Shown: positions 18,606 to 51,577, numbered from the stretch's first letter. The stretch is DNA of 64,000 bases from Candidatus Micrarchaeota archaeon (GCA_018819225.1 JAHJQN010000004.1:66813-130812); one strand, 5' to 3'. Numbers and translations are program-made. The notes: generated by a model from the letters alone, not told the origin.

Positions 18606-18737
18606 AAGCCTTCAATGCACTAGTCACTCATCATTAATCTTTATAAATCTTTGGAAGTAAGTGGCCTTGAAACAGCTTAATAAGGCCGGAAACCATGCAT
18701 TTTTCGAAAATGGAGGCCGGAAAACGCTTTTTCACGT

Positions 18738-19241
18738 TTATTCATGCGCTTTAAATCTGAATTCCGTGAATGGTATCAACGGGTATCGCTCTTGAATCGC
18801 AATCACTCCGGGCCGGCCAATCCGACGATATTTCACTCGATTTTTGATTTCGGTTGGCACATGGCTCATAATTGTTGGTTCAAGCCGTACAGTCAGGCCT
18901 TCTCTCTTAATAATCTCCTGAATTGCGCTTCGGATTATTTTTCCCCGTTGAGGAGTCAACGCCATTTCTCTGGAACGTGCAACCGCGATGCTGTATGGAA
19001 ACCGTTGTGGCGTGACCATCATATGATATCCGGTTCGAAACAACGCGTGTTCCCGAAGCATTTTTGCTATTCGCAGGATTTGCGCGCGAGTTGATTCAGT
19101 TTCTGGAGGTTTCAACGTCTTTTCACTCAGTAGATGTGGATATATTCCTAATAAATGGCTTTCCCTCAGCCGTTTCCAAACGGTTAAATGGCGATTTTCC
19201 CTTGTATTGTACATCATGCTGGCTGCCATTCTATTCCTCAT
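18738..19241 (-). CDS. Hypothetical basic protein
   Basis: 167-aa Arg/Lys-rich ORF with no recognised motif. The start is uncertain. Confidence 0.3.
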   Translation of the reverse strand: MRNRMAASMMYNTRENRHLTVWKRLRESHLLGIYPHLLSEKTLKPPETESTRAQILRIAKMLREHALFRTGYHMMVTPQRFPYSIAVARSREMALTPQRGKIIRSAIQEIIKREGLTVRLEPTIMSHVPTEIKNRVKYRRIGRPGVIAIQERYPLIPFTEFRFKAHE

Positions 19242-21057
19242 CGGTTCCTATTTGATCGGCTTATCGGTTTCCCGTCGCTTAATGTTCATTAACGCAGGCA
19301 TTCTCGCTATTGCTTTCGGCTTGATCATCGGCACCTGGACCGTATTCTTATCGTCGCTGGTATTCGGGTTCACGACCGTTTCCATCGTCCTTGCCTCGCT
19401 TCTGATTCTCGCTATCGCGCTCCACGATCTGCCGTTTCATGAGCTCTCCAAATCCGTGAGAAAGGAATCCTACGTTCCTTACGCGTTCTTAGCAATATCC
19501 TTCCTGGCATTTCTGGTTCTTTCCTCTGCGTTGCTCCACTGGGATTCGAGTGGAAATATCATCGGCAATGGAAAAGATTTAGGATTTTATTTAGCCATTT
19601 CCACTTCAATTTCCGAGGGGAATTTTCCTCCTCAATATCCCGTTGCGGCTTCCGATCCCCTTAGCTATTATTATTTTTTCTCATTCATGGCTTCTATTTT
19701 ATTCAAAGGCGGTATACCCTTATTCATTTCGTTCAATCTTGTTTCCGCGATTTTCTTATCCGGATTATTCACCTTCGTTTTTATTATGGCCTCCTCGCTT
19801 TTCAGGAGCCATCGTACCGGAGTATTTTCGGTTTTTCTGTTATTGTTTGCCGGCGGTTTGCATTTTCTTCCCTATCTTGAATTCGTCGATCTCTCAAATC
19901 CGCAAGTTATTTCTGAGATACTCTTGAACCCTCGCTTGTTGACGCAATATCAATCGTATGGGTACCCCGTTCACAATATTCTGCTAACATCGGTTACCGC
20001 TCGACCGGACCTAGCCGGATTATTCTTTTTCACTGCAGCAGCCGCGTTTTTGTTACTGCGTAAGCGTTTAAGCTCCGTATGGATGGGGATTTCTGGAGGA
20101 TTATTCGGATTAACGGCCATGTTCAGCGTTCCCCTCGCAATGGTGACGCTATCCGCACTTGTAATCTACCTCGCGTTCTTTGATTCCGAGGCTGTAAAGA
20201 ATCGGTTTCACCTCCTCGTACCGTTTGGAATCGGTTTGGTTCTCGCATTAGTCATTCAGTTACCGATCTTTCTCCCCAAACTGGTTTCCGCGAACGCTCA
20301 CTTTGCTTTCGCACCGCTTGAATTCCTTTCCGAAACCCCGTTTTCAGATCCGCTTACGTTTTGGACAGCCAATTTTGGTTTCTGGCTGCTTGCGGGAATC
20401 GCCGGCTATTTTCTTGCTCCTTCTAAACTAAAAAAAATCGCTTTATCCCTATTACCGTCGTTTCTTTTCCTCAATCTGTTTCAATTCGCCCCCTGGTACG
20501 TTGATCAGTTCAAGTTGGCGCTTCCAGTGCTTGTCATTCTCGTGTTGCTTTCCATCCCGTTATACCGTCGGGTGTATTCCATCCGTCGGTTTGGCCCATC
20601 TTTAGTCATTCTTCTCGTTCTCTCTTCCAGTCTGACGGGTTACTTGAATGTCATTTCCATTACTCAATTCGCGAGCGCGGATGCTCCTGAACGTCCCATA
20701 TGCAACGCTTCAGCCGTGCAATTCTCGGAATTCGTCCGCTTAAACACGCCTCCATCATCTGTTTTCATTTCAGATCCTGAAACAGATGTTTCGTGCCTCA
20801 CCGCGTTCAGTGGCAGACTCGCGTTTTACTCGAACGGGAAATGGATCGAAAACCATGGCTTGAATCGAACAATAAAGGAAAAACAGAACCAGGATATGCT
20901 GAAAGGGGATTGCGAATTATTGAAACGTCTCGACATTCATTATGCTTATGAGGATGAAAATTCCGGGTGGCGCATTCCTCAATCATTGAAAGAAATCTCA
21001 ACGCTCGTTCATTCTCGAAGCGATCTCCGTCTATACCAAATTCACTGCCCAAACTGA
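19207..21057 (+). CDS. Polytopic membrane glycosyltransferase-like protein (GT-C/PMT-ArnT-like) with C-terminal soluble domain
   Basis: 616 aa. About 12 TM helices are followed by a soluble domain of about 120 aa ending ...DIHYAYEDENSGW...LRLYQIHCPN. That C-terminal domain resembles those of 32074-32607 and 33910-35829. Confidence 0.45.
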   Translation: MYIMLAAILFLIGSYLIGLSVSRRLMFINAGILAIAFGLIIGTWTVFLSSLVFGFTTVSIVLASLLILAIALHDLPFHELSKSVRKESYVPYAFLAISFLAFLVLSSALLHWDSSGNIIGNGKDLGFYLAISTSISEGNFPPQYPVAASDPLSYYYFFSFMASILFKGGIPLFISFNLVSAIFLSGLFTFVFIMASSLFRSHRTGVFSVFLLLFAGGLHFLPYLEFVDLSNPQVISEILLNPRLLTQYQSYGYPVHNILLTSVTARPDLAGLFFFTAAAAFLLLRKRLSSVWMGISGGLFGLTAMFSVPLAMVTLSALVIYLAFFDSEAVKNRFHLLVPFGIGLVLALVIQLPIFLPKLVSANAHFAFAPLEFLSETPFSDPLTFWTANFGFWLLAGIAGYFLAPSKLKKIALSLLPSFLFLNLFQFAPWYVDQFKLALPVLVILVLLSIPLYRRVYSIRRFGPSLVILLVLSSSLTGYLNVISITQFASADAPERPICNASAVQFSEFVRLNTPPSSVFISDPETDVSCLTAFSGRLAFYSNGKWIENHGLNRTIKEKQNQDMLKGDCELLKRLDIHYAYEDENSGWRIPQSLKEISTLVHSRSDLRLYQIHCPN

Positions 21058-21132
21058 TATTCGGCATTCCCCAACATTTTTAAGTTGACGAACCTTATTT
21101 CGTACTATTTACTTTTTTTTGGTGTGTAGGCT

Positions 21133-23655
21133 ATGTTCCGACAGGTATTTGCGGTCATTCTCTTTGCCTCGCTGGTTTCATCTATTTCCAATTGGGATAC
21201 GCATCAGCATGACCTGGAGAATACGGGTTCAACCCCTGAATCCGGACCTGAAAACTTCAACATATTAGGGGAATTCGGCCGCTGGAATCCAAGCTATGAG
21301 TGTTATACTGGAAGTGCTCCGCCGGATCATGCCCCCCTTTTACACAATGGCCGCTTGTATATGTATACGAGCCATCCTGTACAAGTTTTTGCGATTTGCG
21401 TTTATCAATACGACGATCCCGTAAACGGATTTATGGGTCAAATTGGTTGCGATGTTCAGTCCACGCCCATTGTGGTAGGCGACACGCTTTTCACTCACTG
21501 CGGGTTTGATCCCGGATTCCCTCCGCACAATCAAATCAAAGCATGGGATGTCGAAACGCTGAGCTTGAAATGGAAACGGAATCTCCCGTTATTTGGCTGG
21601 TACAATTCCATGAACGGCATGACGTACGGAGCGAATAAGATTTTCATCGGTTATGCCGGAAACGGTGGCGCGCAGCTTCCAACTCTTTGGGCATTAAACG
21701 CTTCTTCCACCAATCCCTTTGGTCAAGAGGTCTGGAAAATCACTTTTCCCGACCATTTCGGAAAAATCTACCGAGCGCCGCTATTTTTGAATGAGAGCCT
21801 CTATGTTTCGTACGGAAATCAAAGCGGTTTTTTTCTGATAAAATTAAACGCAAATACCAGTGATGAAATTTGGACGCGGAAAGTGGGGTCCGAGCCCGGT
21901 TTTGTATCTCCCATTCATCATGGCGGCACCATTTACACGGCAGGAAACTCGCTGAGGGCATACGATGAAGACGGAAACGAGAAATGGGCGAGAGGAGTAT
22001 ACGGTACCGCCTACGGACTAACGTATTGGAAAGACCAAATCATTTACTTCGGTCTCCCACAAACTAATTGGGGGAGAATGCACGCCATTAACGCTACGAA
22101 CGGATCGCTGATATGGCAATATGACTATCCGGTGACCGGAGGTTATGCGCGAGGTACACCCGCTGTTTCGGAAAACGGAATTATTTATCATTGCGGGGGA
22201 CCGAATTTCTTTGTTGCAATCAATGCGACGGATGGAACAAAGCTCTGGCATTCTGCTTTGGGTTGCCGTGATCAATCCCCCTCCGTTTATCGCGGTATTA
22301 CGTATGTTCCGACTCGTTCAAGTGATTCAAATGGGTGGACGTTGGCCATCGGTCCCGAATTCCCTCCCAACGAACCGCCTATGGTTACTGTAACGGGTCC
22401 GGGATGGGCTTTGATGGGTAACGAATTCAATGTAACGGGTGATGCGGTGGATTCGGATGGAATAATCAGCAACCATTCCTGGACGTACGATCCATCATTC
22501 TGCAACTTGAATCTTGAAACTTCTAATGGTATGGGTACTTCTCACTTCACTTCCATTGCAACGTTTGTTTGTTACGCGGTGGGTCCGCAAGTATTCGAGA
22601 TGGGCGTATTTGATAATGCGGGTACGATGCAAAACGACCAGGATACGGTTGAAATTCTGGATGTGGCGCCAGTCCTCGGCAATTTTGACATCATTCCAGA
22701 TCCCATTCTTTATTGGGCGGATGGAATCCTTCGCGGACAAACGTTTTCAGTTGCCAATTGTAAGGATGGATCCGGGGATCCCATTGACTGCGGATACTTT
22801 TCGGATCCTGCGTGGAACTTGCAGGGGTTTGAGGATGACGGAATAACTCAAATCGTTGAATTCGCCGATTTTTCGCAAACCTATTTGGCTGTTGATACGG
22901 CTTCCATTGACCAGAGCGGAAATTTCTGGGTGGAGTCTGCTGTCCCTGGAGACGGACAAATTCTTGCTGAAATTGATGGAATCGAGCGTTCCGTTGATAT
23001 CGTTGTCAGCGAATATTCATTAACGGTCATTCCGTCAATCATTGAGCTAGTATATGGAGGCGTTCAGGATTTCGATGCCGAGTGCGAGAGTCAAAATGTG
23101 GTCATTTCCTGTCCTCAAGCCCCCGTATGGTCTCTCGAGAACGGTCTTTTTGGTACGATTGATGCGAACACCGGAGTATATACTGCTCCGCTCTTTCCTT
23201 CATCGGGCCAAGTTCACGCGACAATCGGTACGGTATACGGGACCGCCGATGTTTCGGTCTGGGAGAATATCGTTCCCACCAGTTCATCTGAACCCATTCC
23301 GGACATCGTGGAACCCAACATGTTATACTTGAATTGTCCTCGCCTGGTTCAACGTGATGAAACCCTTATCGAGGTTCAGTGTTGGAGAGAAGGAGTTCCG
23401 TGCGATTTGAGTGATATCTCTTTGAATGGTGCTCCATACCAATTCGTAGGAACCGGTCACGGATCGATCTCTTATTCCGTCGAAACCCTGCAAGCAGGAA
23501 CGTATTATCTCACCGCACAGGTTTCCGGTTTGGATACCAGTTCGTGCTCCATTCAGCGTGCAAACCTGCAGCCTGCTTCTGTTCCAGAACTTCATCCCGC
23601 TTTAATCCTGTTTCTGGCCGCGAGCATGCTATTCGTCATGCGGCGTCGAGCTTAG
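21133..23655 (+). CDS. Large secreted surface protein: PQQ-like beta-propeller repeats + Ig-like domains + conserved Cys-containing C-terminal domain + VPXXXP-type C-terminal TM sorting tail
   Basis: 840 aa with a signal peptide. Repeated W/Y-rich propeller blades (ALNASSTNPFGQEVWKI..., AINATNGSLIWQYDY..., AINATDGTKLWHS). C-terminus CPRLV...QCW...PC...SSCSIQ...ASVPELHPALILFLAASMLFVMRRRA. Confidence 0.6.
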   Translation: MFRQVFAVILFASLVSSISNWDTHQHDLENTGSTPESGPENFNILGEFGRWNPSYECYTGSAPPDHAPLLHNGRLYMYTSHPVQVFAICVYQYDDPVNGFMGQIGCDVQSTPIVVGDTLFTHCGFDPGFPPHNQIKAWDVETLSLKWKRNLPLFGWYNSMNGMTYGANKIFIGYAGNGGAQLPTLWALNASSTNPFGQEVWKITFPDHFGKIYRAPLFLNESLYVSYGNQSGFFLIKLNANTSDEIWTRKVGSEPGFVSPIHHGGTIYTAGNSLRAYDEDGNEKWARGVYGTAYGLTYWKDQIIYFGLPQTNWGRMHAINATNGSLIWQYDYPVTGGYARGTPAVSENGIIYHCGGPNFFVAINATDGTKLWHSALGCRDQSPSVYRGITYVPTRSSDSNGWTLAIGPEFPPNEPPMVTVTGPGWALMGNEFNVTGDAVDSDGIISNHSWTYDPSFCNLNLETSNGMGTSHFTSIATFVCYAVGPQVFEMGVFDNAGTMQNDQDTVEILDVAPVLGNFDIIPDPILYWADGILRGQTFSVANCKDGSGDPIDCGYFSDPAWNLQGFEDDGITQIVEFADFSQTYLAVDTASIDQSGNFWVESAVPGDGQILAEIDGIERSVDIVVSEYSLTVIPSIIELVYGGVQDFDAECESQNVVISCPQAPVWSLENGLFGTIDANTGVYTAPLFPSSGQVHATIGTVYGTADVSVWENIVPTSSSEPIPDIVEPNMLYLNCPRLVQRDETLIEVQCWREGVPCDLSDISLNGAPYQFVGTGHGSISYSVETLQAGTYYLTAQVSGLDTSSCSIQRANLQPASVPELHPALILFLAASMLFVMRRRA

Positions 23656-23695
23656 CCAGCATGATTTATATACTTCTTTCCCAACTCCTTAATTC

Positions 23696-24247
23696 ATGGA
23701 TTCCAAAGTCCTTTTCATTGGGGGCATCCCGGGTCTCGGAAAAAGCAAGTATGCCTCCAAGATTCCCATGCTTCATTCGAAAGTGCATCACCTCAATTTG
23801 GAACAAATGCTAACCTATCTCGCGGAACACTCGTTTGCTAAACAGGTGGATGATTTATCTCCGGAAGAATTGGATCAAATCGGAAAACGCTGTTTGAGGG
23901 AAGTGGAAGGAAAAGCGGACATTACGTTGCTGGACGGATCGTATTCTCATTATTCTCCAGATCCCGGTAAACGAAAAACCCCGATTCCCGTTTCATTGCA
24001 GGAACGCATCGATGCATTCATTTTAGTGGATGCCGATGTCCAAACGGCTATTTGGTTGCGGGAACGACGCCAATATCCAAAAGAACGTATGGTTTCCGTC
24101 CGCGTGCAACATGAACTTGAATTGGAGAAACAGATGGCTGAACAAATGGCGGCTCGGTTGGGTAAGAAACTCGTAATCGTCAAGCGCCAGCGCAACGTGG
24201 ATTTTGTCGAGGTCCTTCGCACCACCATTCTGGTTATGACGCAATGA
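23696..24247 (+). CDS. P-loop NTPase / nucleotide kinase-like protein
   Basis: 183 aa. The Walker A-like GGIPGLGKS sits at the N-terminus. The specific family is not determined. Confidence 0.45.
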   Translation: MDSKVLFIGGIPGLGKSKYASKIPMLHSKVHHLNLEQMLTYLAEHSFAKQVDDLSPEELDQIGKRCLREVEGKADITLLDGSYSHYSPDPGKRKTPIPVSLQERIDAFILVDADVQTAIWLRERRQYPKERMVSVRVQHELELEKQMAEQMAARLGKKLVIVKRQRNVDFVEVLRTTILVMTQ

Positions 24248-24251
24248 AGCG

Positions 24252-24602
24252 TCACGTGCGATAATACATGGAATCGTATTTCGTTAATTCGTTCCGGTGC
24301 GCTTCCAACGTTTGAACAATTAACAAGTAAACGCATAGAAGTAACGCCACTGAAACGAGCGGGAACACGTCAAAAATATTGCTTTCCATGACGCCCATGA
24401 GTCTTAAAAGCAGCTCGGCAAACAACCACAACGTCACGTACGTTTCAGAAATCAACATCAAATAGAAAATTTTTTGCATTAATTTGAATCGAAAGAGTCG
24501 AAGCGCTTTCGTCAACCGGAACCAAACGTATATTGCGAGCGTAAACAGCGATCCGTATCCGATGATCAGTCCTTGTTCGATGGCACTCATATTCCGTTCC
24601 AT
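24252..24602 (-). CDS. Small hypothetical membrane protein
   Basis: 116 aa with three hydrophobic segments. Confidence 0.3.
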   Translation of the reverse strand: MERNMSAIEQGLIIGYGSLFTLAIYVWFRLTKALRLFRFKLMQKIFYLMLISETYVTLWLFAELLLRLMGVMESNIFDVFPLVSVALLLCVYLLIVQTLEAHRNELTKYDSMYYRT

Positions 24603-24706
24603 TCGATTTGTTTTACTACCTTCAAAAGCCTTCCGGTTTTTTCCCCGGATTCGTTCGATGGGGGGTAATCGGAATTTTAATAAAGCACAACTGACCTGTT
24701 TGGGTC

Positions 24707-27700
24707 ATGCCTCGAATTCATCTCTTATCTCTTGCATTATTCGCTCTTTTCGTTGGTAATGCATTGGCGATTACCAATTGGGCGTTGCGGGAATTCGATG
24801 CCGGCAACATAATGAGTAGTCCGGACGGTCCGGAAATGCCTCTCCAGCTCCTCGGATACTTTGGTAGTACGGGCAGCGGTTGCTATACCGCCCAAGATAA
24901 TAACTACATGCCGGGCGGCGTTCTCGCTTACAACGGTAAAGCGTACATGGTTGCCGCAATAGGCGGCAGTGGAATTCCGACCACATTCCACATCTGCGTA
25001 TTCGACTATAACGAGCCTTCTGAAAATCCGATTCAAATCATTGACATCGATACCCAGGTGTCCCCTGCAATTTACAAGAATATACTGTATGCCTGGGTGG
25101 AAGGGAGTCAAAGACTCGTTGCCTACGACCTCGTTTCAAACACCATCAAATGGCAAATCAGTTTGGATACGTCGGGTGTGCGTGGCAACATCTATCACGT
25201 TCCCATCGTGGCCGACGATAAGGTGTTCATGACAACCAGTGCTTTCATGGGTCCGACGCGAGTGTGGGCCCTGGATTATGAGACGGGTGCCGAGGTATGG
25301 AAACGAGTATACGAAGGGCAGTGGAGCTGGGGCCCAAAATTCGCCTATATGCCCGCTTTCGGAGACGGTCGCTTGTATACCGTATTTGTGAACGAAACCA
25401 CTTTTGACGGCAGTACCCAAAACATTACTACTGAGGCAATCGATGCAGACACCGGCGCATTGATATGGCAAAAGAGCGGGATATTAAGCGGTAACATCTA
25501 TTGGGAGATGTACGATTCCGCGCCTGTTTTTCACGGTGGCTGGCTATACACTTTCATCGATACTACTGGCGGCTATCAAGTTTACCGCCGTTCGGCAGCG
25601 TCCGGAGGGTTAAGTTGGTCGTCACCAGCAAGTACTGGAACTCATTATGGAATAACGGTTTCAGATGATCGAGTTTTCATGACACGGGGCGGCATACCCG
25701 GAGCTCCCCTTTACGCGTATGCTCTTTTCGGATCCGATGGGAGTGACGATTGGATGACTGCTCTTTCCAGTTTACATCATCCTCAAGGCGTTCCTGCCAC
25801 GCTGGGAAACGGGTTGCTTTATTATTCAACTCGGCAGGCAACGAAGGCATTGAATTCCGTTACCGGCGAAATTATTGATGGGACCCTTAAATACATGACG
25901 AAACGCAAGCTCGCTGTCACGTACAACAATTTGCTGTATATTCCGGCTGTTGGCGGCGGAAACCCCGATAATGGATTGGTGGCTATTTATGGTACGGCTC
26001 TTCCTTCCAACCTTCCGCCAAATGCCGAAGCCAACGGTCCTTACAGCGGCTTAATCAATGAAGTCATTCCCCTCGTTGGAATGGGTTGGGATGAAGATGG
26101 CGTGATTACCAATATTCAATGGGATATTTCCACGCATCCGGAATGCGTGCTCAACAACATTAACGTACAAAACCTTAATACCGAAACCGCTAATATTTTC
26201 GCTGATCTGGCGTGTTCTTCCACAGGAGTCAAGGTCATCACGCTGATTGCGACAGATGATGATGGCTTGCAGGCATCGGATACCGCATTTGTAGCCATTG
26301 GAGGCGTTGGCAGTGGCGGAGACCCTCCGGTAGTAGAGGCAGGTGGTCCGTATGCCGGTGAAGTTGACACCGCTATTCCCATTTTCGGTTTTGCCTACGA
26401 TGACGGCAGCATTACTGCTCTTTCTTGGACCTCGATTCCTGCGGATTGTACTCTATCAAATGAGATGTACAATTTGGTAACGGATCCCGCCACCGCGTAC
26501 GCCGATATCTCGTGCACTATCGCCAATCCGGTTCCCAAATCCATTTCATTAGAGGCAACGGATAACGATGCCAATCACGGCACCGATGACGCGGATTTGT
26601 TGATCTTGCCAGTAGGCGGAAATTTCCCCCCGACGGTTTCTATCATTGCCGCTCCTCCTTGGATTGAAGAAAATACTCCGTTTCAAGTAGTGGCTGAAGG
26701 CCGCGATCAAGACGGCAACCTCGTCTCAGTTACGTGGACCCATCCCACGTGCAGTTTTGTTAGCGCCAATAACAATCCCCCGCTACCCGCCCCGAACACC
26801 ATTTCGACGCTAACCACTTCCTGCGCAACTATCGGCCAAGCTACGGTTACCGTTCTAGTCACCGACAATGATGGGGCAACGGCTAGTGACCAAGCGGTCG
26901 TTCAAATCGTGGCTTCAGGCGATGAACCTGAAATGACTTCCATAGAAATCGATTCTTCTGATGAGCATTGGGCTGACTTTATTGACCGATCCCAAATCTA
27001 CGATATTACTTGCTACAACGATTTCGGCCCCATGAACTGCTTCGGTACTCTTTCTTGGGGACTCCAGGCATTTCCTCCGCAAGATGCTACCTTGATATTC
27101 GATATTCAGAATGACGGCACATTCCATCTGCAAACCGACCGACCCGTCACAGGCCAAGTGACCGCTTCCTTGAATAATATGGATGGATTTTTCAGCGATG
27201 ATGAGCCTGTGACCGCTAACCCGTACTTGATTGAAGTAGATCCTTCGATTGCATTGCTTCCTCACGGCGGCGAGCAACAATTTGCGGCTTCATGCACGGA
27301 TGCCGGAGGAACGCCTATGGCCTGCCCCGGTCCCGGAACCCTGGAATGGTCTTTGATAGGAATCGGCGGCACCATTGACGCTACCGGACATTATTCAGCA
27401 CCCTTTACCGATGCAACGGGCCAAGTACGAGCGAATATTGGCTCGGTGAACGGGTTTGCTACCGTAATTGTGCAGGAAACGATTCCGACTCCAACGGTTC
27501 CTCCGGGAGGCGCGACGCCAACCTTTGTTTTCGTTCAAGGCAACGTATTAACGCTTGATTGTCCTAGAATTGCGTATACGGATCAATCGGCGGTTGTGGT
27601 TCAGTGCTGGAAGGGCGGAGAGCCCTGTTCTGCATCCGATATTCAATTAATGGGTTCTTCAAATGCGCTGGTGAGTGAAGGCCACGGGAGCTTTACTTAC

Positions 27701-27892
27701 GTGGTTGAGACCGTCACGGATGGCGAGTATTCGTTGCTAGCAACGGCTTCTGGTATGGACGGCCAGTCATGTTCCATTAATCGAGTGGAGCCCGAAGCAG
27801 GCTCTATTCCGGAGCTGCATCCTGTTCTAATCATCATCGCATTGTTTACGGCATTAATGGTTACGCGCAGACGTACCCGAGCTTTAATCTAA
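24707..27892 (+). CDS. Large secreted surface protein (paralog of 21133-23655): PQQ-like propeller + multiple Ig/PKD-like domains + conserved Cys C-terminal domain + VPXXXP-type tail
   Basis: 1061 aa with a signal peptide (MPRIHLLSLALFALFVGNALA). Propeller-like repeats. Repeated segments of about 95 aa (NGPYSGLINEVIPLVGMGWDEDGVITNIQWD..., GGPYAGEVDTAIPIFGFAYDDGSITALSWT...). C-terminus CPRIA...QCW...PC...QSCSINR...GSIPELHPVLIIIALFTALMVTRRRTRALI. Confidence 0.6.
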   Translation: MPRIHLLSLALFALFVGNALAITNWALREFDAGNIMSSPDGPEMPLQLLGYFGSTGSGCYTAQDNNYMPGGVLAYNGKAYMVAAIGGSGIPTTFHICVFDYNEPSENPIQIIDIDTQVSPAIYKNILYAWVEGSQRLVAYDLVSNTIKWQISLDTSGVRGNIYHVPIVADDKVFMTTSAFMGPTRVWALDYETGAEVWKRVYEGQWSWGPKFAYMPAFGDGRLYTVFVNETTFDGSTQNITTEAIDADTGALIWQKSGILSGNIYWEMYDSAPVFHGGWLYTFIDTTGGYQVYRRSAASGGLSWSSPASTGTHYGITVSDDRVFMTRGGIPGAPLYAYALFGSDGSDDWMTALSSLHHPQGVPATLGNGLLYYSTRQATKALNSVTGEIIDGTLKYMTKRKLAVTYNNLLYIPAVGGGNPDNGLVAIYGTALPSNLPPNAEANGPYSGLINEVIPLVGMGWDEDGVITNIQWDISTHPECVLNNINVQNLNTETANIFADLACSSTGVKVITLIATDDDGLQASDTAFVAIGGVGSGGDPPVVEAGGPYAGEVDTAIPIFGFAYDDGSITALSWTSIPADCTLSNEMYNLVTDPATAYADISCTIANPVPKSISLEATDNDANHGTDDADLLILPVGGNFPPTVSIIAAPPWIEENTPFQVVAEGRDQDGNLVSVTWTHPTCSFVSANNNPPLPAPNTISTLTTSCATIGQATVTVLVTDNDGATASDQAVVQIVASGDEPEMTSIEIDSSDEHWADFIDRSQIYDITCYNDFGPMNCFGTLSWGLQAFPPQDATLIFDIQNDGTFHLQTDRPVTGQVTASLNNMDGFFSDDEPVTANPYLIEVDPSIALLPHGGEQQFAASCTDAGGTPMACPGPGTLEWSLIGIGGTIDATGHYSAPFTDATGQVRANIGSVNGFATVIVQETIPTPTVPPGGATPTFVFVQGNVLTLDCPRIAYTDQSAVVVQCWKGGEPCSASDIQLMGSSNALVSEGHGSFTYVVETVTDGEYSLLATASGMDGQSCSINRVEPEAGSIPELHPVLIIIALFTALMVTRRRTRALI

Positions 27893-28356
27893 ACCTTGAC
27901 TCGTTTATGCATTCTATGCTCACTATGCGTAATGAGTTCCGCTATAGTTCCAAGCTGAATATTGATATCTAATTGTTTTCCCCCCTTAATTGCATCTTTA
28001 AAGGCTATAACTCTCGGATTCCGTACCTGGTGTTCACTTAAATGATTCTGTAATGCGGTTAATACTCCTGCGACGCGCTCTGGAGCCATCCGGAGAAGGT
28101 GACTTTGTTCCTGTTGAAGCAATAATCTCTCTCCGACCATCTTTCCATGAAACGCCGTTGTAATATCTCTGAAAGTCGCAGTCGGGTTCATTTTTCTCAT
28201 GAGCTTAGTATGCGACTCTCCATTTCGTCCCAACATTACTATTGGTTCGGTTGGATGGACTATAAACGTAATATCCGAAGTTGGCGTCCGGATTAATCGG
28301 CTGCTCTTCCGAATTATCATTTCGTCTTTCTGATTCACAATTGCGTTTCTAGTCAA
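27889..28356 (-). CDS. Hypothetical protein
   Basis: 155-aa ORF with no motif recognised. It lies just outside the left repeat of the integrated element. Confidence 0.3.
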   Translation of the reverse strand: MTRNAIVNQKDEMIIRKSSRLIRTPTSDITFIVHPTEPIVMLGRNGESHTKLMRKMNPTATFRDITTAFHGKMVGERLLLQQEQSHLLRMAPERVAGVLTALQNHLSEHQVRNPRVIAFKDAIKGGKQLDINIQLGTIAELITHSEHRMHKRVKV

Positions 28357-28515
28357 TGGTATTTAAATCAGGCGCTGGGGATCGGGATTAAGCCCTCTAG
28401 GAGAAAGCCTAGAACGAAGAAGGAAGCGGCGGGAGGATGAGCGTATACGGCTGGACTACAACGCGGTATTCGAGAATACGAACGATTTTATAAATATCTT
28501 GAATTTATCTAATTC

Positions 28516-29247
28516 ATGCCAATACCCCATTTACGCTTATTACAAGCGGTTCATGTCCTAGGTGTGGACCATTCCTCTCAACAGAGTACGCAAAAAGTGG
28601 TTAACTATTTACATTTTGGTATTGGCCAAAAGGTAATTGAAGGTACCTCGGGTGCCATCGCAATCGATTCATCTATTCCACCGGGTGCAGACCCGAAATC
28701 AAGAAGTATAAATAATGGTAAACGAGTGGGCATTGAATTGACTAGAAAAGAACTAGAAGAGTTTCGAGAACTGTATCGGAAAATCATGAAAGGAGAAGAT
28801 CTCCCAAAGCGCGTATCCACAATTCATGATCCTTTTTTTATAAATATGGTTCGATATGAAGCGCTGCATGGCGTTCAACTGGTTCCAGTTGATTCTGAGA
28901 AATTAAAACAATATTACCTTCGAGCAATGGAACGTGCGGAAAAACTGAAACTTGCTGGAAATGCTGAAGAAGCAGCCAAGCAAGAAGCAAGAGCTAACGA
29001 AGCGTGGATTCCTGCTCGCGAAGCGGCAATTGCTCGAACCATTGCTCGGGAAAAGTTGAAAATTAATATTGTAGGCAGATTCCACTCGGAAGCAGTTTCG
29101 AAAAGATTGAATGAAGAGCATAATGTGACTGCTTTTCCATTGAAATTTGTTTCAGCTAGAATGGAATCGCGATTAAAACACTTTGATGATTTCGGTGGTT
29201 TTATTCGGGCCCGAGAAATGTATTCAAAAAGAAGAATGCGAAAATAG
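28516..29247 (+). CDS. Hypothetical protein (element cargo)
   Basis: 243-aa charged, coiled-coil-rich ORF inside the repeat-bounded region. Confidence 0.35.
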   Translation: MPIPHLRLLQAVHVLGVDHSSQQSTQKVVNYLHFGIGQKVIEGTSGAIAIDSSIPPGADPKSRSINNGKRVGIELTRKELEEFRELYRKIMKGEDLPKRVSTIHDPFFINMVRYEALHGVQLVPVDSEKLKQYYLRAMERAEKLKLAGNAEEAAKQEARANEAWIPAREAAIARTIAREKLKINIVGRFHSEAVSKRLNEEHNVTAFPLKFVSARMESRLKHFDDFGGFIRAREMYSKRRMRK

Positions 29248-29397
29248 TCGCGTAATATCTAACAGAATGATTTCTGTTATAAATAGACGCGCTGGGGATG
29301 GGCGTATAGGCTTGAGGGAGGCAAATCCGCGGATTCTAACTAATTGTTCAAGCGCCGGGGAGGAGATTCAGGCCAAATAGTTCGAATCTCCTACAAT

Positions 29398-29997
29398 TTA
29401 CTTCCTATTCTGTTTTGAATGTTTTTCTCGCTCTATCCAATAATCGTCTGCCAACTTCTTTTGTAGCTCCGCAGCCATCACTGACTCGGGTAAAATAACG
29501 GTCGAATCAATTTCTTGAGCTCGTCTATAGTCTTTCAACGCGCTCTTCATTTTTCCTGCATTTTCGAGAAAATATCCACGTTCAACATATGCTTCGGCAA
29601 ATAACGGATGATCTTTTATTATATTGCCCAATAATTTTATTGCTAAATCTAAGTTGCCCAAGTCTCCCAGGGTACGTGCGCGCATATACCGCAGATATGG
29701 ACTTTTAGGTGTTAACTTTAATCCTTCTTCGCAATAGAAGAGGCATTTATCATATTCGCCCGAATTCGAATATCCTAACGCTAGGTGTCTAAAGCTAAAC
29801 TCATCTGGATTCTTAACTTTTTTATATAACCAACGATGAGGAAATTTTTTTTCGGTTGTATGGATTCTATCCATATCTAACCGTAAGTCCTTTGTTTTTT
29901 CTGCAATATTATCAAAGGATTCGGGAGGATTCACCGGAGACTTATGCGATGATGGACTACCTAATATTTTGTTTTTAATTTTTTTTAATATACTCAT
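29398..29997 (-). CDS. TPR-repeat protein (element cargo)
   Basis: 199 aa with tetratricopeptide-like repeats (AEAYVERGYFLENAGKMKSALKDYRRAQEID, LYCEEGLKLTPKSPYLRYMRARTLGDLGN). Confidence 0.5.
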   Translation of the reverse strand: MSILKKIKNKILGSPSSHKSPVNPPESFDNIAEKTKDLRLDMDRIHTTEKKFPHRWLYKKVKNPDEFSFRHLALGYSNSGEYDKCLFYCEEGLKLTPKSPYLRYMRARTLGDLGNLDLAIKLLGNIIKDHPLFAEAYVERGYFLENAGKMKSALKDYRRAQEIDSTVILPESVMAAELQKKLADDYWIEREKHSKQNRK

Positions 29998-30034
29998 AAC
30001 TATCCCGATGAGATATTACTACTGCCTTCATGAA

Positions 30035-30307
30035 CTAATGTTTGAAAGTCTCATACTCTTTCTTGCTAATCTCATTCCCATCCGCAATACGAATCCGTTC
30101 TTTAGAATGCTCATCGCATAATTCGAATAATTTGTTCGCATATTCTAGTTCATGCTTAATCCCATGTATAAAATCTTCTATTTTTTCTACTATGTTTCGT
30201 TTATCTTCCTTAACATAGCTATACCGATAAAAGTGAGTTGGTTTTTGTTCACAATTTTTAATATAACAACGGTCAATATGCCATTCTATTGAAAACGAAG
30301 GTTCCAT
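30035..30307 (-). CDS. Hypothetical small protein (element cargo)
   Basis: 90-aa ORF with no motif recognised. Confidence 0.3.
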   Translation of the reverse strand: MEPSFSIEWHIDRCYIKNCEQKPTHFYRYSYVKEDKRNIVEKIEDFIHGIKHELEYANKLFELCDEHSKERIRIADGNEISKKEYETFKH

Positions 30308-30413
30308 AACAAACGTAGTACTTGAGGTACTATATATTTAACGGTAATAACTTGGGTAAGTATGTGCTCTTTCCCGCGACCTTATAAAGTATGTTTAAGC
30401 CATAATAATTGGG

Positions 30414-31334
30414 TTGAACATGGGAGAAACTCCCGCAGTTATCCGATGGCTCAAAACAAAAGAACCACGCTTCCAATTAAAGAAAAGCGACCTGATTTCA
30501 GGTGAGGAACTAGGAGCGTTATTGGCCGCATGTGACACTGTAAAAAAACGATTCTTTATTGCGGTTTTATATGAAAGTGGTGCACGAATAGGCGAATTGC
30601 TTTCTGCCACCGTTGGAAACGTAAAAGTAGACGCACATGGCATCATGTTAAGTGTAGACGGAAAAACAGGCCCGCGTTCTATACGATTAGTAACTTCTGC
30701 CGGTCAATTCGGAGAATATCTTAACGGACATCCCGAACGCAACAATCCAGATGCTCCCTTATTTTATTCAATTAAAGACGGACAATGCAAACAATGCGAA
30801 TACTGGACCGCTGCCAAAATGATGCGTCGTTTATTCACGAAGGCGGGCGTTTCAAAAGAAAAAGCCCACTTCCATCTGTTTAGGCACAGCCGTGCAGCAG
30901 AAACGAAGCGATTCATGCCCGAAGATTACCAACGAAGATTTTTTGGATGGGCTCATGGATCGGATATGCCCAGTCATTACGGAGCATTAGATTCCAGTGA
31001 CCTAGATAACATTTTACTATCCGCTTACGGAAAAGCGCAACGGAATGCGACAATTCCCGAGATCATTAACCGAATCTGTGAGTGCTGTCATCATGAGAAC
31101 TTTCCATCATCTGCATATTGTAGTGGATGCGGATGGAAACTCGGATTAAAGGCATCTCAATTACCACTAACCGAGCGCGAAATAGCTTTACTAAAGATCA
31201 TTGCGAACGCTCCGAACTATGAACAAGTGGTTTCATCCCTTCCAACGAATGAATTGGAGAAAATTACTTCTCGATTAATTGATTTACGAGATGGGGACCG
31301 GGACATTAAGTCAGGCGCTGGGGATGGGATTTGA
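30414..31334 (+). CDS. Tyrosine recombinase / phage-type integrase (XerA-like catalytic domain) with C-terminal zinc ribbon
   Basis: 306 aa. The catalytic residues appear in the canonical order: GARIGEL (Arg I), DGKTGPRSIRL (Lys), HLFRHS (His/Arg II), WAHGS (His) and PSHYGAL (Tyr nucleophile). It also has CECCHHEN...CSGCGWK. Its stop overlaps the 3' end of tRNA-Ser(CGA). Confidence 0.8.
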   Translation: MNMGETPAVIRWLKTKEPRFQLKKSDLISGEELGALLAACDTVKKRFFIAVLYESGARIGELLSATVGNVKVDAHGIMLSVDGKTGPRSIRLVTSAGQFGEYLNGHPERNNPDAPLFYSIKDGQCKQCEYWTAAKMMRRLFTKAGVSKEKAHFHLFRHSRAAETKRFMPEDYQRRFFGWAHGSDMPSHYGALDSSDLDNILLSAYGKAQRNATIPEIINRICECCHHENFPSSAYCSGCGWKLGLKASQLPLTEREIALLKIIANAPNYEQVVSSLPTNELEKITSRLIDLRDGDRDIKSGAGDGI

Positions 31335-31441
31335 ACCCATACGGGCCAGAGGCCCACCAGATATCTGGTCTTTCAACCTTTTTTTATAGTGTAGGCGAAA
31401 GATCTCGAGTCTGGCGCGTTACCGGATTCCGCCACCCCAGC
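31316..31441 (-). tRNA. tRNA-Ser(CGA), type II, with an intron of about 41 nt in the anticodon loop
   Basis: Manual fold: acceptor GCUGGGG/CCCCAGC; D-arm GCG...CGC; anticodon stem CCAGA/UCUGG with loop CUCGAGA (anticodon CGA); long variable arm GGGCC-UCU-GGCCC; T-arm AUGGG-UUCAAAU-CCCAU; discriminator G. About 41 nt are inserted at 37/38 (AUCUUUCGCCUACACUAUAAAAAAAGGUUGAAAGACCAGAU). Confidence 0.7.
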
Positions 31442-35988: not shown

Positions 35989-36009
35989 AAAGCGGGCCCA
36001 ACGGGATTC
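35989..36009. repeat. 21-bp direct repeat copy within tRNA-Arg 3' end
   Basis: See 35926-35946. Confidence 0.6.
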
Positions 36010-36175
36010 GAACCCGCAACCTACTGGTCTCTCCCCCATCACGCTGTTGCGCCGAAGGAAAAAGGACTAGCCCTTTTCCCGGGACCGAAGCCACGACTTC
36101 CGTCTCTTCCAATAAAAAGTGAAAGAGCAAGTGGGACCGGAACCAGTCGCTCTGTCCTGGTTGAGCTATGGGCCC
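35993..36175 (-). tRNA. tRNA-Arg(CCG) with an unusually long intron (about 108 nt) at the canonical 37/38 position
   Basis: Manual fold. Exon 1: GGGCCCA-UA-GCUC-AACCAGGACA-GAGC-G-ACUGG-UUCCGG. Exon 2: A-CCAGU-AGGUU-GCGGG-UUCGAAU-CCCGU-UGGGCCC-G. The acceptor, D, anticodon and T stems pair perfectly except for one G-U pair in the T stem. The anticodon is CCG. The sequence 36029-36136 is intronic. The intron length is far above typical, so the exact exon junctions are tentative. Confidence 0.55.
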
Positions 36176-36238: not shown

Positions 36239-36321
36239 GCCGGGGTGGCAGAGCGGTTATTGCGCTGGTCTTGAAAACCAGTTCCCGCAAGGGATCAGGA
36301 GTTCGAATCTCCTCCCCGGCG
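36239..36321 (+). tRNA. tRNA-Ser(TGA), type II, no intron
   Basis: GCCGGGG-UG-GCAG-AGCGGUUA-UUGC-G-CUGGU-CUUGAAA-ACCAG-UUCCCGCAAGGGAUC-AGGAG-UUCGAAU-CUCCU-CCCCGGC-G. Anticodon UGA. Long variable arm UCCC-GCAA-GGGA. Confidence 0.85.
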
Positions 36322-51238: not shown

Positions 51239-51577
51239 TTATTTTTTTAAAGAAATTTTGATACCCACCAACTCCTTATTCTTACGTAAATGTTCAAAAT
51301 GGAATCGAGAGGAATCGTGTCCATGGCGTTCCAAGAGAGCTCGAAGCATGACGACACGCCAGTCTCGATGGAGGCCTCCGGAAATCGGTCGTTGTATATG
51401 CTCCATTTGGCGGTCCAAGCCCAAATCTGCCCATTGCCGGTGCAAAATCCGTTCAACGGAGAGGCCATCAAATTGAGTTCCTACCTGAACCAAAACGTGG
51501 TCTTTAGCAAGGACCGGGTACAGTCTTTCCTCACTCAAAATGCGATGGAATTCCGCTGGGGACGGGACTTTAGGCAT
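51239..51577 (-). CDS. Hypothetical protein
   Basis: 112-aa ORF with no motif recognised. Confidence 0.3.
   Translation of the reverse strand: MPKVPSPAEFHRILSEERLYPVLAKDHVLVQVGTQFDGLSVERILHRQWADLGLDRQMEHIQRPISGGLHRDWRVVMLRALLERHGHDSSRFHFEHLRKNKELVGIKISLKK

What the first reader, a model, noticed from the sequence alone, without database searches (positions are those of the whole stretch)
28370..31441. Small integrated element at tRNA-Ser(CGA) with tyrosine integrase and three att-like direct repeats
The 3' end of tRNA-Ser(CGA) plus a 5-nt trailer (tcaggcgctggggat-gggatt) is present at 31311-31331. It is repeated at 28370-28392 (21 nt with one inserted c) and partially at 29290-29303 (14 nt). 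Between the outer repeats lie a XerA-like tyrosine recombinase, a TPR protein and two hypotheticals. The recombinase has all catalytic residues, and its stop codon overlaps the tRNA 3' end. The interior is visibly more AT-rich than its flanks.

The internal partial repeat suggests either two successive integrations (about 0.9 kb and about 2.0 kb) or an internal recombination remnant. This is the classic archaeal and bacterial tRNA-targeted integration signature. At about 3 kb the element is very small.
Basis: partly seen in the sequence, partly recalled or inferred. Interest (0 to 1): 0.65.

Follow-up and report, generated by a model that had tools for sequence, protein, structure and literature searches.

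The report
Decayed integrated element at tRNA-Ser
A 2.9-kb stretch of foreign, AT-rich DNA sits next to a serine tRNA gene in a Micrarchaeota (DPANN archaeon) genome, bounded by copies of the tRNA's 3' end; it is the worn-down remnant of one or two small integrating plasmid- or virus-like elements, and its integrase has lost its N-terminal domain, so it is a fairly ordinary genomic fossil.

Summary
An intron-bearing tRNA-Ser(CGA) lies at 31316-31441 (-). Its last 16 nt plus 10 nt of trailer recur at 28363-28389, with a 15-nt perfect core. A 14-nt exact copy lies at 29289-29302. The enclosed 2.9 kb has the lowest GC in the 64-kb window (0.402 vs 0.473, z = -4.7). It encodes three genes with no relatives on the related contigs, two of them ORFans, plus a tyrosine recombinase whose last 19 nt overlap the tRNA.

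Two related Micrarchaeota contigs are collinear on both sides of the tRNA but lack these genes. This is therefore a lineage-specific insertion.

New points:
- The integrase (304 aa) lacks the ~115-aa N-terminal domain present in nearly all of its 390-440-aa homologues.
- One of its three closest relatives sits on an 8.3-kb circular element, and all three carry a tRNA-3'-end-like sequence at the same place in the gene's 3' end, as in Mx8.
- The internal junction also holds an exact 17-nt copy of the 3' end of the other tRNA-Ser(UGA).
- Relatives carry short arrays of the same tRNA 3'-end core.

Verdict: a decayed, probably immobile and probably composite remnant at an integration hotspot. It is a new member of a known kind, of modest interest.

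The parts
28363..28389 (+). attL: displaced copy of the tRNA-Ser(CGA) 3' end (16 nt, with one extra C) plus 10 nt of trailer. The perfect 15-nt core TCAGGCGCTGGGGAT is at 28368-28382.
28427..28453 (+). Possible further degenerate att-like copy (GCGGCGGGAGGATGAGCGTATACGGCT), resembling the internal copy and its right flank. Weak, at the level of background similarity.
   Evidence: read from the sequence; not significant on its own (background alignment scores)
28516..29247 (+). 243-aa ORFan with no Pfam, PHROG, PADLOC or NCBIfam match. It is the only gene of the left 0.9-kb segment.
29289..29302 (+). attM: internal 14-nt exact copy of the tRNA-Ser(CGA) 3' end (GCGCTGGGGATGGG). Its left flank loosely resembles the tRNA trailer.
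29353..29369 (-). Exact 17-nt copy (GAATCTCCTCCCCGGCG) of the 3' end of the second tRNA-Ser(UGA) gene of the window (36305-36321). It has the same orientation as the att copies.
29379..29392 (+). 14-nt exact copy of the T-arm of tRNA-Ser(UGA) (AGTTCGAATCTCCT). It forms an inverted repeat with the previous piece.
29398..29997 (-). 199-aa TPR-repeat protein (cargo), GC 0.367.
30035..30307 (-). 90-aa ORFan, GC 0.322.
30420..31334 (+). Tyrosine recombinase, 304 aa (306 aa from the TTG at 30414). It has a catalytic domain, a CxxC...CxxC zinc ribbon and a helical tail. It lacks the family's ~115-aa N-terminal domain. Its last 8 codons are att/tRNA DNA.
31306..31331 (+). attR: the junction that regenerates the tRNA 3' end. 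The perfect 15-nt core is at 31311-31325.
31316..31441 (-). tRNA-Ser(CGA), intact, with a 41-nt canonical intron at 31363-31403. This is the integration target.
27889..28356 (-). 155-aa ORF (called as 103 aa in public data), an ORFan with GC3 0.40, just outside attL. It may be older foreign DNA or a spurious ORF. Whether it belongs to the element is uncertain.

Best explanation
This is the decayed remnant of small integrative plasmid- or virus-like element(s) of a Micrarchaeota archaeon, inserted by tyrosine-recombinase site-specific recombination into the 3' end of tRNA-Ser(CGA).

Inferred mechanism:
- The ancestral circular element carried its attP inside the last codons of its own integrase gene.
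- Strand exchange took place within the 15-nt identity TCAGGCGCTGGGGAT. This covers 5 nt of trailer, the discriminator base, the 7-nt acceptor 3' strand and 2 nt of the T-stem.
- Integration regenerated the tRNA at attR. The integrase's C-terminus (...SGAGDGI*) is now encoded by tRNA DNA read on the opposite strand.
- The original tRNA end was displaced to attL.
- The two differences between attL and attR segregate exactly as this predicts. The left-flank A/G sits left of the core, and the extra C sits right of it, on the element side of attL.

The internal copy (attM), together with fragments of a second tRNA-Ser, suggests two successive integrations: an older 0.9-kb segment and a younger 2.0-kb segment that carries the integrase.

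The element has since shrunk. Its integrase lost the N-terminal domain and no replication or structural genes remain, so it is most likely immobile by itself.

Shown: the repeats, the tRNA, the gene overlap, the composition, the truncation and the absence from relatives.
Inferred: the crossover position, the attP location, the order of events and the loss of mobility.
For: - Intact tRNA, with a displaced 3' fragment in direct orientation and the recombinase gene adjacent.
- GC and GC3 are the lowest in the window.
- The cargo genes are ORFans among 5.8 billion proteins, as expected of mobile-element DNA.
- Relatives L038 and L057 share gene order on both sides (window 14.3-18.6 kb and 31.5-35.8 kb) but lack these genes.
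- The homologues are 390-440 aa. The window protein starts at the domain boundary (GETPAVIRWLK). The N-terminal domain is found nowhere in the 64 kb. The XerA profile match starts at profile position 83.
- The homologue P0004 (49% identity; P0002 and P0003 are closer, 59%) lies on an 8345-bp contig assembled in circularly permuted form in at least three sequencing runs, with a 30-nt terminal overlap. This is a free circle carrying a full-length integrase, a resolvase and an RHH protein.
- P0002-P0004 carry a conserved tRNA-3'-end-like DNA motif (AAGCCCCCG...) at the position that aligns with the window's att, within an otherwise variable C-terminal tail.
- The integrase's 90%-identity cluster has a single member, so no circle-junction variant (...SGAGDRD*) is on record.
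- Precedents: Mx8 has attP inside the int 3' end (PMC6070905; PMC4383910). Archaeal integrases prefer tRNA 3' ends, use att sites as short as 8-13 bp, and switch among tRNA-Ser/Leu targets. Int(C)-only proteins recombine poorly (PMC8371274).
Against: - No same-species genome with a clean empty site was found. The relatives share only ~40-60% protein identity with the window, and the whole 12.7 kb downstream of the tRNA differs in them.
- Three other DPANN contigs carry the same core repeated at ~80-115-bp spacing with no genes between, so repeats at this locus can exist without an element.
- More distant integrase homologues have no tRNA within 5 kb. The attP-in-gene arrangement is therefore supported only for the closest clade, and only by sequence resemblance.
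- The truncated integrase ORF is intact and has a TATA-like box about 30 nt upstream (TTATAAAG, 30383-30390, read), so it may still be expressed and active.
Confidence: 0.7

Rival explanations
1. It is a single, still mobile, minimal 2.9-kb integrative element. The short integrase (catalytic domain plus zinc ribbon plus helical tail) suffices for integration and excision. The internal att-like pieces are accessory binding sites or harmless relics.
For: - The integrase ORF is intact with all catalytic residues.
- A TATA-like box lies upstream of the ATG at 30420.
- attL and attR share a perfect 15-nt core.
- Int(C) fragments of the SSV1/SSV2 integrases retain weak recombination activity in vitro (PMC8371274).
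- A 1.8-kb recombinase-bearing insert flanked by tRNA-Thr pieces is known in Caldiarchaeum (PMC3293823).
Against: - Nearly all homologues, including the one on the free 8.3-kb circle, keep the N-terminal domain.
- No replication or transfer gene is present.
- No circle-junction protein variant is on record.
- The Logan contig from SRR6514730 runs uninterrupted through attR, attM and attL, so that assembly gives no sign of an empty-site or excised variant.
Confidence: 0.12
2. It is one element, not two. The internal copy attM and the tRNA-Ser(UGA) pieces are part of a single element's history, for example an attP region that collected tRNA fragments during earlier imprecise excisions. They are not the junction between two successive integrations.
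For: - Both segments have similar GC (0.407 and 0.397).
- The left segment has no integrase remnant (tblastn).
- The tRNA-Ser(UGA) copy cannot come from integration at this tRNA-Ser(CGA) site.
Against: - attM is in direct orientation.
- Its left flank resembles the tRNA trailer, as expected for a hybrid junction.
- Tandem arrays at tRNA genes are well documented (PMC4383910; PMC8371274).
Confidence: 0.25
3. It is not a mobile element. Arrays of tRNA 3'-end copies downstream of tRNA-Ser are a conserved host feature of these DPANN archaea, and the recombinase is a domesticated host gene.
For: - Arrays of the same core occur in L038, L057 and L031 without any integrase.
- An 80-nt unit is 87.5% identical between L038 and L057, although neighbouring proteins are only ~50% identical.
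Against: - The genes between the repeats are absent from the relatives.
- They are compositional outliers and ORFans.
- The recombinase's nearest relatives include one on a free circular element.
- It fails the XerA model.
Confidence: 0.06

Closest known systems
tRNA-targeted genomic islands / integrated elements with classical (type II, pNOB8-like) archaeal tyrosine integrases (Islander-type islands; thaumarchaeal, haloarchaeal SNJ2-type and Methanococcales pT26-2-like elements)
   Same: - Integration at the 3' end of a tRNA gene.
- The tRNA is regenerated and a 3' fragment is displaced in direct orientation.
- The integrase gene lies next to the tRNA.
- The att identity is short (15 nt here; 8-13 nt is reported for Thaumarchaeota and SNJ2).
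- tRNA-Ser genes are known targets, and target switching occurs within the long-variable-arm tRNAs (PMC8371274; PMC4383910).
   Different: - It is only 2.9 kb.
- The integrase lacks its N-terminal domain.
- The host phylum is Micrarchaeota/DPANN, which the 2021 archaeal recombinase review does not cover (the word DPANN occurs 0 times).
- The integrase family has a C-terminal zinc ribbon.
Myxococcus phage Mx8 IntP/IntX
   Same: The att core lies inside the 3' coding end of the integrase gene, so integration rewrites the protein's C-terminus (PMC6070905; Tojo et al. 1996, cited in PMC4383910).
   Different: - Mx8 is a bacterial phage, and no sequence relationship was tested.
- Here only about 8 codons are involved.
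- The attP-in-gene arrangement is inferred from sequence, not shown experimentally.
SSV-type 'suicidal' archaeal integrases (SSV1/2, pTN3, pT26-2)
   Same: The att site lies within the integrase ORF, and the integrated copy encodes an integrase piece that holds only the catalytic part (PMC8371274).
   Different: - In those systems the gene is split at att into int(N) and int(C) at opposite ends of the element.
- Here att is at the extreme 3' end, the missing N-terminal part is not at the other end or anywhere else in the 64 kb, and the truncation point carries no att copy.
- The only Pfam match is PF00589. The review assigns PF16795 to suicidal integrases.
Accretion arrays and CIMEs (att-flanked integrase-less remnants next to an integrase-bearing element, e.g. 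at Streptococcus ICE sites); tandem islands in Islander
   Same: Several direct att copies bound segments of which only the tRNA-proximal one keeps an integrase gene. The 0.9-kb left segment looks like an integrase-less remnant.
   Different: - The comparison with CIMEs rests on my own knowledge; no paper was read for it.
- No evidence of mobilisation in trans.
1.8-kb recombinase-bearing insert between a tRNA-Thr fragment and tRNA-Thr in Caldiarchaeum subterraneum (Sugahara et al. 2012, PMC3293823)
   Same: A very small archaeal insert with a recombinase, bounded by a tRNA and a fragment of it. It is linked to changes in tRNA introns, and intron positions in this tRNA-Ser also differ among the relatives seen here.
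   Different: There the fragment is a 5' piece and the element occurs in six copies, like a transposable element. No sequence comparison was made.
Archaeal XerA (chromosome dimer resolution)
   Same: It is the best solved-structure match (4A8E, E = 2e-6) and the best NCBIfam model. The catalytic fold is the same.
   Different: - It scores 55 bits against a cut-off of 220.
- There is no N-terminal domain.
- It has a zinc-ribbon tail.
- It sits in foreign DNA at a tRNA.
- It is not a XerA orthologue.

Membership tests
Tyrosine recombinase superfamily (PF00589) | Catalytic domain with the R-K-H-R-(H/W)-Y residues | tested here: met
   PF00589 matches at E = 9e-12 over residues 29-189. R56, K82, H152, R155, W177 and Y187 lie in invariant columns.
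Its own integrase family (390-440-aa archaeal integrases with a C-terminal zinc ribbon) | N-terminal ~115-aa (core-binding/SAM-like) domain preceding the catalytic domain | tested here: not met
   The alignment starts at homologue residue ~109-118. No trace of the domain appears in the 64 kb at tblastn E < 10. An in-frame stop lies at 30396.
Its own integrase family (390-440-aa archaeal integrases with a C-terminal zinc ribbon) | C-terminal CxxC...CxxC zinc ribbon | tested here: met
   C220, C223, C234 and C237 are nearly invariant.
tRNA-integrated genomic island (Islander criteria) | Intact tRNA gene plus a cognate 3' fragment in the same orientation | tested here: met
tRNA-integrated genomic island (Islander criteria) | Integrase gene inside the interval, and a length of at least 2 kb | tested here: met
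   The integrase is at 30420-31334. The repeat-to-repeat distance is 2943 bp. The 2-kb filter is stated in PMC4383910.
tRNA-integrated genomic island (Islander criteria) | Absent from related genomes (empty site) | tested here: inconclusive
   L038 and L057 are collinear on both sides and lack the genes. However, they are distant (~40-60% protein identity), and they carry short arrays of the core rather than a clean empty site. No same-species genome was found (one search gave 0 hits).
Mobile (excision-competent) integrative element | Detectable circular junction or empty site in the population | not testable with these tools
   Only indirect evidence is available. The integrase cluster has one member, so no junction variant is recorded. 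The Logan contig runs through all the att copies.
SSV-type suicidal integrase | Gene split at att into int(N) and int(C) at the two ends of the element; Phage_integr_3 (PF16795) domain | tested here: not met
   No int(N) is found in the window. There is no att copy at the truncation point. The only Pfam match is PF00589.
Mx8-like arrangement (attP within the int 3' coding end) | The att core lies inside the integrase ORF in the free element, so integration changes the C-terminus | tested here: inconclusive
   In the integrated copy the core occupies the last 8 codons. The free 8.3-kb relative and two others carry a tRNA-3'-end-like motif at the aligned position. Their target tRNA was not identified.
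Archaeal XerA | Score at or above the NCBIfam equivalog cut-off, with full-length architecture | tested here: not met
   NF040815 scores 55.4 bits against a cut-off of 220, and the match covers profile positions 83-225 only.

The most novel reading that the evidence does not exclude
The window's locus and the gene-less arrays in L038, L057 and L031 may be products of one system. In it, DPANN tRNA-Ser genes would act as accretion sites where cassettes of ~90 bp to 2 kb, each ending in the same 14-17-nt tRNA 3'-end core, are stacked and exchanged by this zinc-ribbon integrase family. That could include the short catalytic-only form, or integrases supplied in trans by circular elements such as the 8.3-kb one. 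The same process might also seed the variable D-loop and T-loop introns seen in this tRNA among relatives.
Probability: 0.08. Interest if true: 0.7.

Novelty: new member of a known kind. Interest (0 to 1): 0.33.

Why it matters
Mobile elements of Micrarchaeota and other DPANN archaea are poorly catalogued. This locus offers:
- a concrete att site: a 15-nt core at the tRNA-Ser(CGA) 3' end;
- an integrase family with a C-terminal zinc ribbon;
- a candidate free relative, an 8.3-kb circle recovered from several sequencing runs.

It also shows that the region downstream of tRNA-Ser is a hotspot of gene-content change in these small genomes. It gives another example of an integrase gene that reads across its own attachment site. 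None of this changes current understanding; it extends known tRNA-targeted integration to a little-studied lineage.

Tried and rejected
- Exact 31-nt tRNA pattern in metagenome contigs: 0 hits, so no same-species empty site.
- Look-up of the 306-aa (TTG-start) integrase and of the 103-aa ORF by exact protein: not on record.
- Integrase alignment against viral contigs: four distant loci, none with a tRNA.
- Contexts of the distant homologues P0007, P0018 and P0023: no tRNA within 5 kb, so the tRNA overlap is not a family-wide trait.
- P0027, another short homologue: it has a separate 106-aa ORF just upstream, so it is not a parallel case.
- Viral-contig scans with the tRNA 22-mer and with the att 16-mer: 43 loci, none with a related integrase.
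- Other genes of the element against the contigs of the closest integrases: no shared genes.
- PADLOC, PHROGs and NCBIfam on the cargo: only generic TPR hits.
- A second core copy in the free circular relative, which would have explained short footprints: none found.
- SSV-like split of the integrase gene: rejected, because there is no int(N) and no att at the break.
- An att copy at the far edge of the 12.7-kb variable region (18.6-18.8 kb): none found.
- The weak core-like match at 51553: no tRNA call covers that position, so it is taken as chance.
Full report
**Observation**

The region was read directly. Rfam finds a tRNA at 31316-31441 on the minus strand, at 50.3 bits. The default run missed it.

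The repeat family is real. Copies lie at 28363-28395, 29280-29312 and 31306-31338. A local alignment of the tRNA plus trailer against the 31 kb upstream ranks the left copy first (score 42, 26/27 with one inserted C). The middle copy ranks second (14/14 exact, score 28). The background maximum is 24. Shuffle controls agree.

- The left copy is 28368-28389, and the similarity extends to 28363.
- The middle copy is 29289-29302.

The recombinase ORF (30420-31334) ends with a TGA inside the tRNA's T-loop, overlapping the tRNA by 19 nt.

The compositional shift is quantitative. GC of 28390-31310 is 0.402. The 1105 other same-size windows average 0.473 +/- 0.015 (minimum 0.433), so z = -4.7. GC3 of the four ORFs is 0.29-0.37, against 0.50-0.63 in the neighbours.

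**Source organism and relatives**

The integrase is identical to a protein of a Candidatus Micrarchaeota archaeon on a 709-kb contig. A Logan contig from SRR6514730 is 100% identical to the window over 11.8 kb. It runs through all the att copies and ends at 28228.

Two related Micrarchaeota contigs were compared: L038 (from a GTDB genome) and L057 (Hainich groundwater).
- Both share the gene order o639-o440-o177-LigT-tRNA-Ser(CGA) on one side; the L057 locus ends before o639.
- On the other side they share a block of small membrane-protein genes equivalent to window 14.3-18.6 kb.
- Between the tRNA and that block they have only 0.4-1.9 kb, against 12.7 kb in the window.
- Neither has an integrase, a TPR gene or the ORFans.

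The att-bounded segment is therefore lineage-specific. These relatives are distant (about 40-60% protein identity), so this is not a same-species empty site. An exact search for the tRNA in metagenome contigs found nothing. The other 9 kb of the variable region (18.7-27.9 kb) encodes large PQQ/PKD surface proteins at host-like GC and has no att copy at its far edge. I do not count it as part of the element.

**The integrase is truncated**

Seventy homologues were found, and nearly all are 390-440 aa. The alignment shows that the window protein begins exactly at the linker before the catalytic domain (GETPAVIRWLK). It lacks the ~115-aa N-terminal domain. It keeps the catalytic residues R56, K82, H152, R155, W177 and Y187, a conserved CxxC...CxxC zinc ribbon and a helical tail.

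The N-terminal domain is found nowhere in the 64 kb (tblastn E < 10). An in-frame stop lies at 30396. The XerA equivalog model scores 55 bits against a cut-off of 220, and the match starts at profile position 83. The best solved structure is P. abyssi XerA, at only E = 2e-6. 'XerA-like' is therefore true of the fold only.

According to the archaeal recombinase review, catalytic-only Int(C) fragments of the SSV integrases cannot multimerise and recombine only weakly (PMC8371274). I infer that this protein is unlikely to move the element by itself.

**Relatives of the integrase and the position of attP**

The three closest homologues (49-59% identity) are full length. P0004 lies on an 8345-bp contig recovered in at least three sequencing runs in circularly permuted form, with a 30-nt terminal overlap. 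This is a free circle of about 8.3 kb. It also encodes a resolvase, an RHH protein and a DnaA-like ATPase. None of its other genes, nor those on the P0002 and P0003 contigs, is shared with the window.

The window's ORF reads SGAGDGI* across the tRNA end. At the aligned position these homologues carry a conserved DNA motif (AAGCCCCCGGCGGGAA, or AAGCCCCCGATGCG) inside an otherwise variable tail. Its reverse complement (CCCGCCGGGGGCU) looks like a T-stem/acceptor 3' strand with a U discriminator. After the motif the ORFs continue for about 15 lysine-rich codons.

I infer that in this clade attP lies inside the 3' end of the integrase gene, so that integration swaps the C-terminal tail. The same is established for phage Mx8 (PMC6070905; PMC4383910). 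This is not a family-wide trait: three more distant homologues have no tRNA within 5 kb.

**Crossover**

attL reads TTAA-A-[TCAGGCGCTGGGGAT]-C-GGGATT-AAGCCC. attR reads TTAA-G-[TCAGGCGCTGGGGAT]-GGGATT-TGAACCC. If exchange occurred within the bracketed 15 nt, the left-flank A of attL is host sequence and the G of attR is element sequence. The extra C and AAGCCC of attL are then element sequence, and the clean T-arm of attR is host sequence. Both differences segregate as predicted, so no post-integration mutation is needed. This is inference from the sequence.

**Internal junction**

The region 29289-29392 holds more than the 14-nt copy. It contains an exact 17-nt copy of the 3' end of the window's other tRNA-Ser(UGA) gene (29353-29369 vs 36305-36321), in the same orientation. 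It also contains a 14-nt T-arm copy on the other strand. Restricted to tRNA ends against the element, such a match is expected about 1e-5 times by chance (my estimate).

The junction is thus a small pile of tRNA-Ser fragments. That fits a hybrid junction between two successive integrations: an older 0.9-kb segment with the 243-aa ORFan and a younger 2.0-kb segment with the TPR gene, the 90-aa ORF and the integrase. It also fits elements that have used more than one tRNA-Ser gene. Target switching among long-variable-arm tRNAs is documented for archaeal integrases (PMC8371274). A single element with a complex attP region remains possible.

The 243-aa and 90-aa proteins have no relatives among 5.8 billion sequences. 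The 155/103-aa ORF just outside attL is also an ORFan.

Extra direct copies of the same core also follow tRNA-Ser in L038, L057 and the Aenigmatarchaeota contig L031. L038 and L031 have two extra copies; L057 has one exact and one degenerate copy. The spacing is only ~80-115 bp and there are no ORFs between them. An 80-nt unit is 87.5% identical between L038 and L057. None of the ~30 Bathyarchaeia or bacterial loci with the same tRNA 22-mer has such arrays.

Repeated tRNA-end copies are therefore a recurrent feature of this locus in DPANN archaea. I read them as scars of repeated integration and loss at a hotspot. That supports the site's role as an att site rather than refuting it. It does mean that the repeats alone would not have proved an element. 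In the window, the foreign genes, the composition and the integrase make the case.

**Verdict**

This is a real, lineage-specific insertion at tRNA-Ser(CGA). It is best explained as a decayed, probably immobile and probably composite remnant of small integrative elements. It is a new member of a known kind and of modest interest. The side observations deserve a separate look: the core arrays, the variable tRNA introns and the 8.3-kb circle.

Noticed in passing
L038:4740-4970; L057:5770-5985; L031:4195-4425: In three other DPANN contigs (two Micrarchaeota, one Aenigmatarchaeota) the tRNA-Ser gene is followed by one or two extra direct copies of its last ~16-18 nt (plus a degenerate third copy in L057). 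Spacing is only ~80-115 bp, the spacers are hairpin-rich, and there are no ORFs. One 80-nt unit is 87.5% identical between L038 and L057, although neighbouring proteins are only ~50% identical. L031's outermost copy is preceded by an inverted partial copy (AATCCCCAGAG|CGCTGGGGAT). These may be integration scars, mini-cassettes or something functional; unresolved.
   Followed up: partly
L057:5960-6160; L038:4650-4770; L058:1020-1125; window 31316-31441: Intron positions in the orthologous tRNA-Ser(CGA) differ among relatives. The window and L058 have a canonical anticodon-loop intron. L038 has a D-loop insert. L057 has a D-loop insert plus a ~60-nt insert in the T-loop, exactly at the 5' edge of the repeated core (GGGTTCAA|insert|AAATCCCATCCCCAGCG). 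This recalls the proposal that mobile-element attP sites carry introns into tRNA genes (PMC3293823).
   Followed up: no
L002/L003/L004 (8345-bp Logan contigs from SRR29973912, SRR29973911, SRR23817493): A circular element of about 8.3 kb was recovered in several runs in permuted form. It has a full-length 437-aa integrase (49% identical to the window's), a serine resolvase, an RHH protein, a DnaA-like ATPase and a 605-aa protein of unknown function. It is a candidate DPANN plasmid or virus.
   Followed up: partly
window 18630-27900: About 9 kb between the att-bounded element and the next genes shared with the relatives. It encodes large PQQ/beta-propeller and PKD proteins (840 and 1061 aa), a 616-aa protein and an AAA_17-like protein, at host-like GC. 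The relatives have CorA (L038) or almost nothing (L057) here. It is a variable region downstream of the tRNA, of unclear origin.
   Followed up: partly
window 35993-36175 (-): tRNA-Trp(CCA) with a 108-nt intron. Default ARAGORN misses it; Rfam (48.4 bits) and ARAGORN -i find it. It lies 64 nt from tRNA-Ser(UGA) at 36239-36321.
   Followed up: no
window 28228: The otherwise identical 98-kb Logan contig from SRR6514730 ends here, 140 nt left of attL and inside the 155-aa ORFan. This may reflect population variation at that point. The contig on the other side could not be retrieved.
   Followed up: partly
L066:5650-6876: Another short homologue (P0027, 291 aa) is preceded by a separate 106-aa ORF 31 nt upstream. 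This may be a split or frameshifted N-terminal domain. It sits in a locus with a TraG-like ATPase, HEPN, a UvrD helicase and T5orf172.
   Followed up: no
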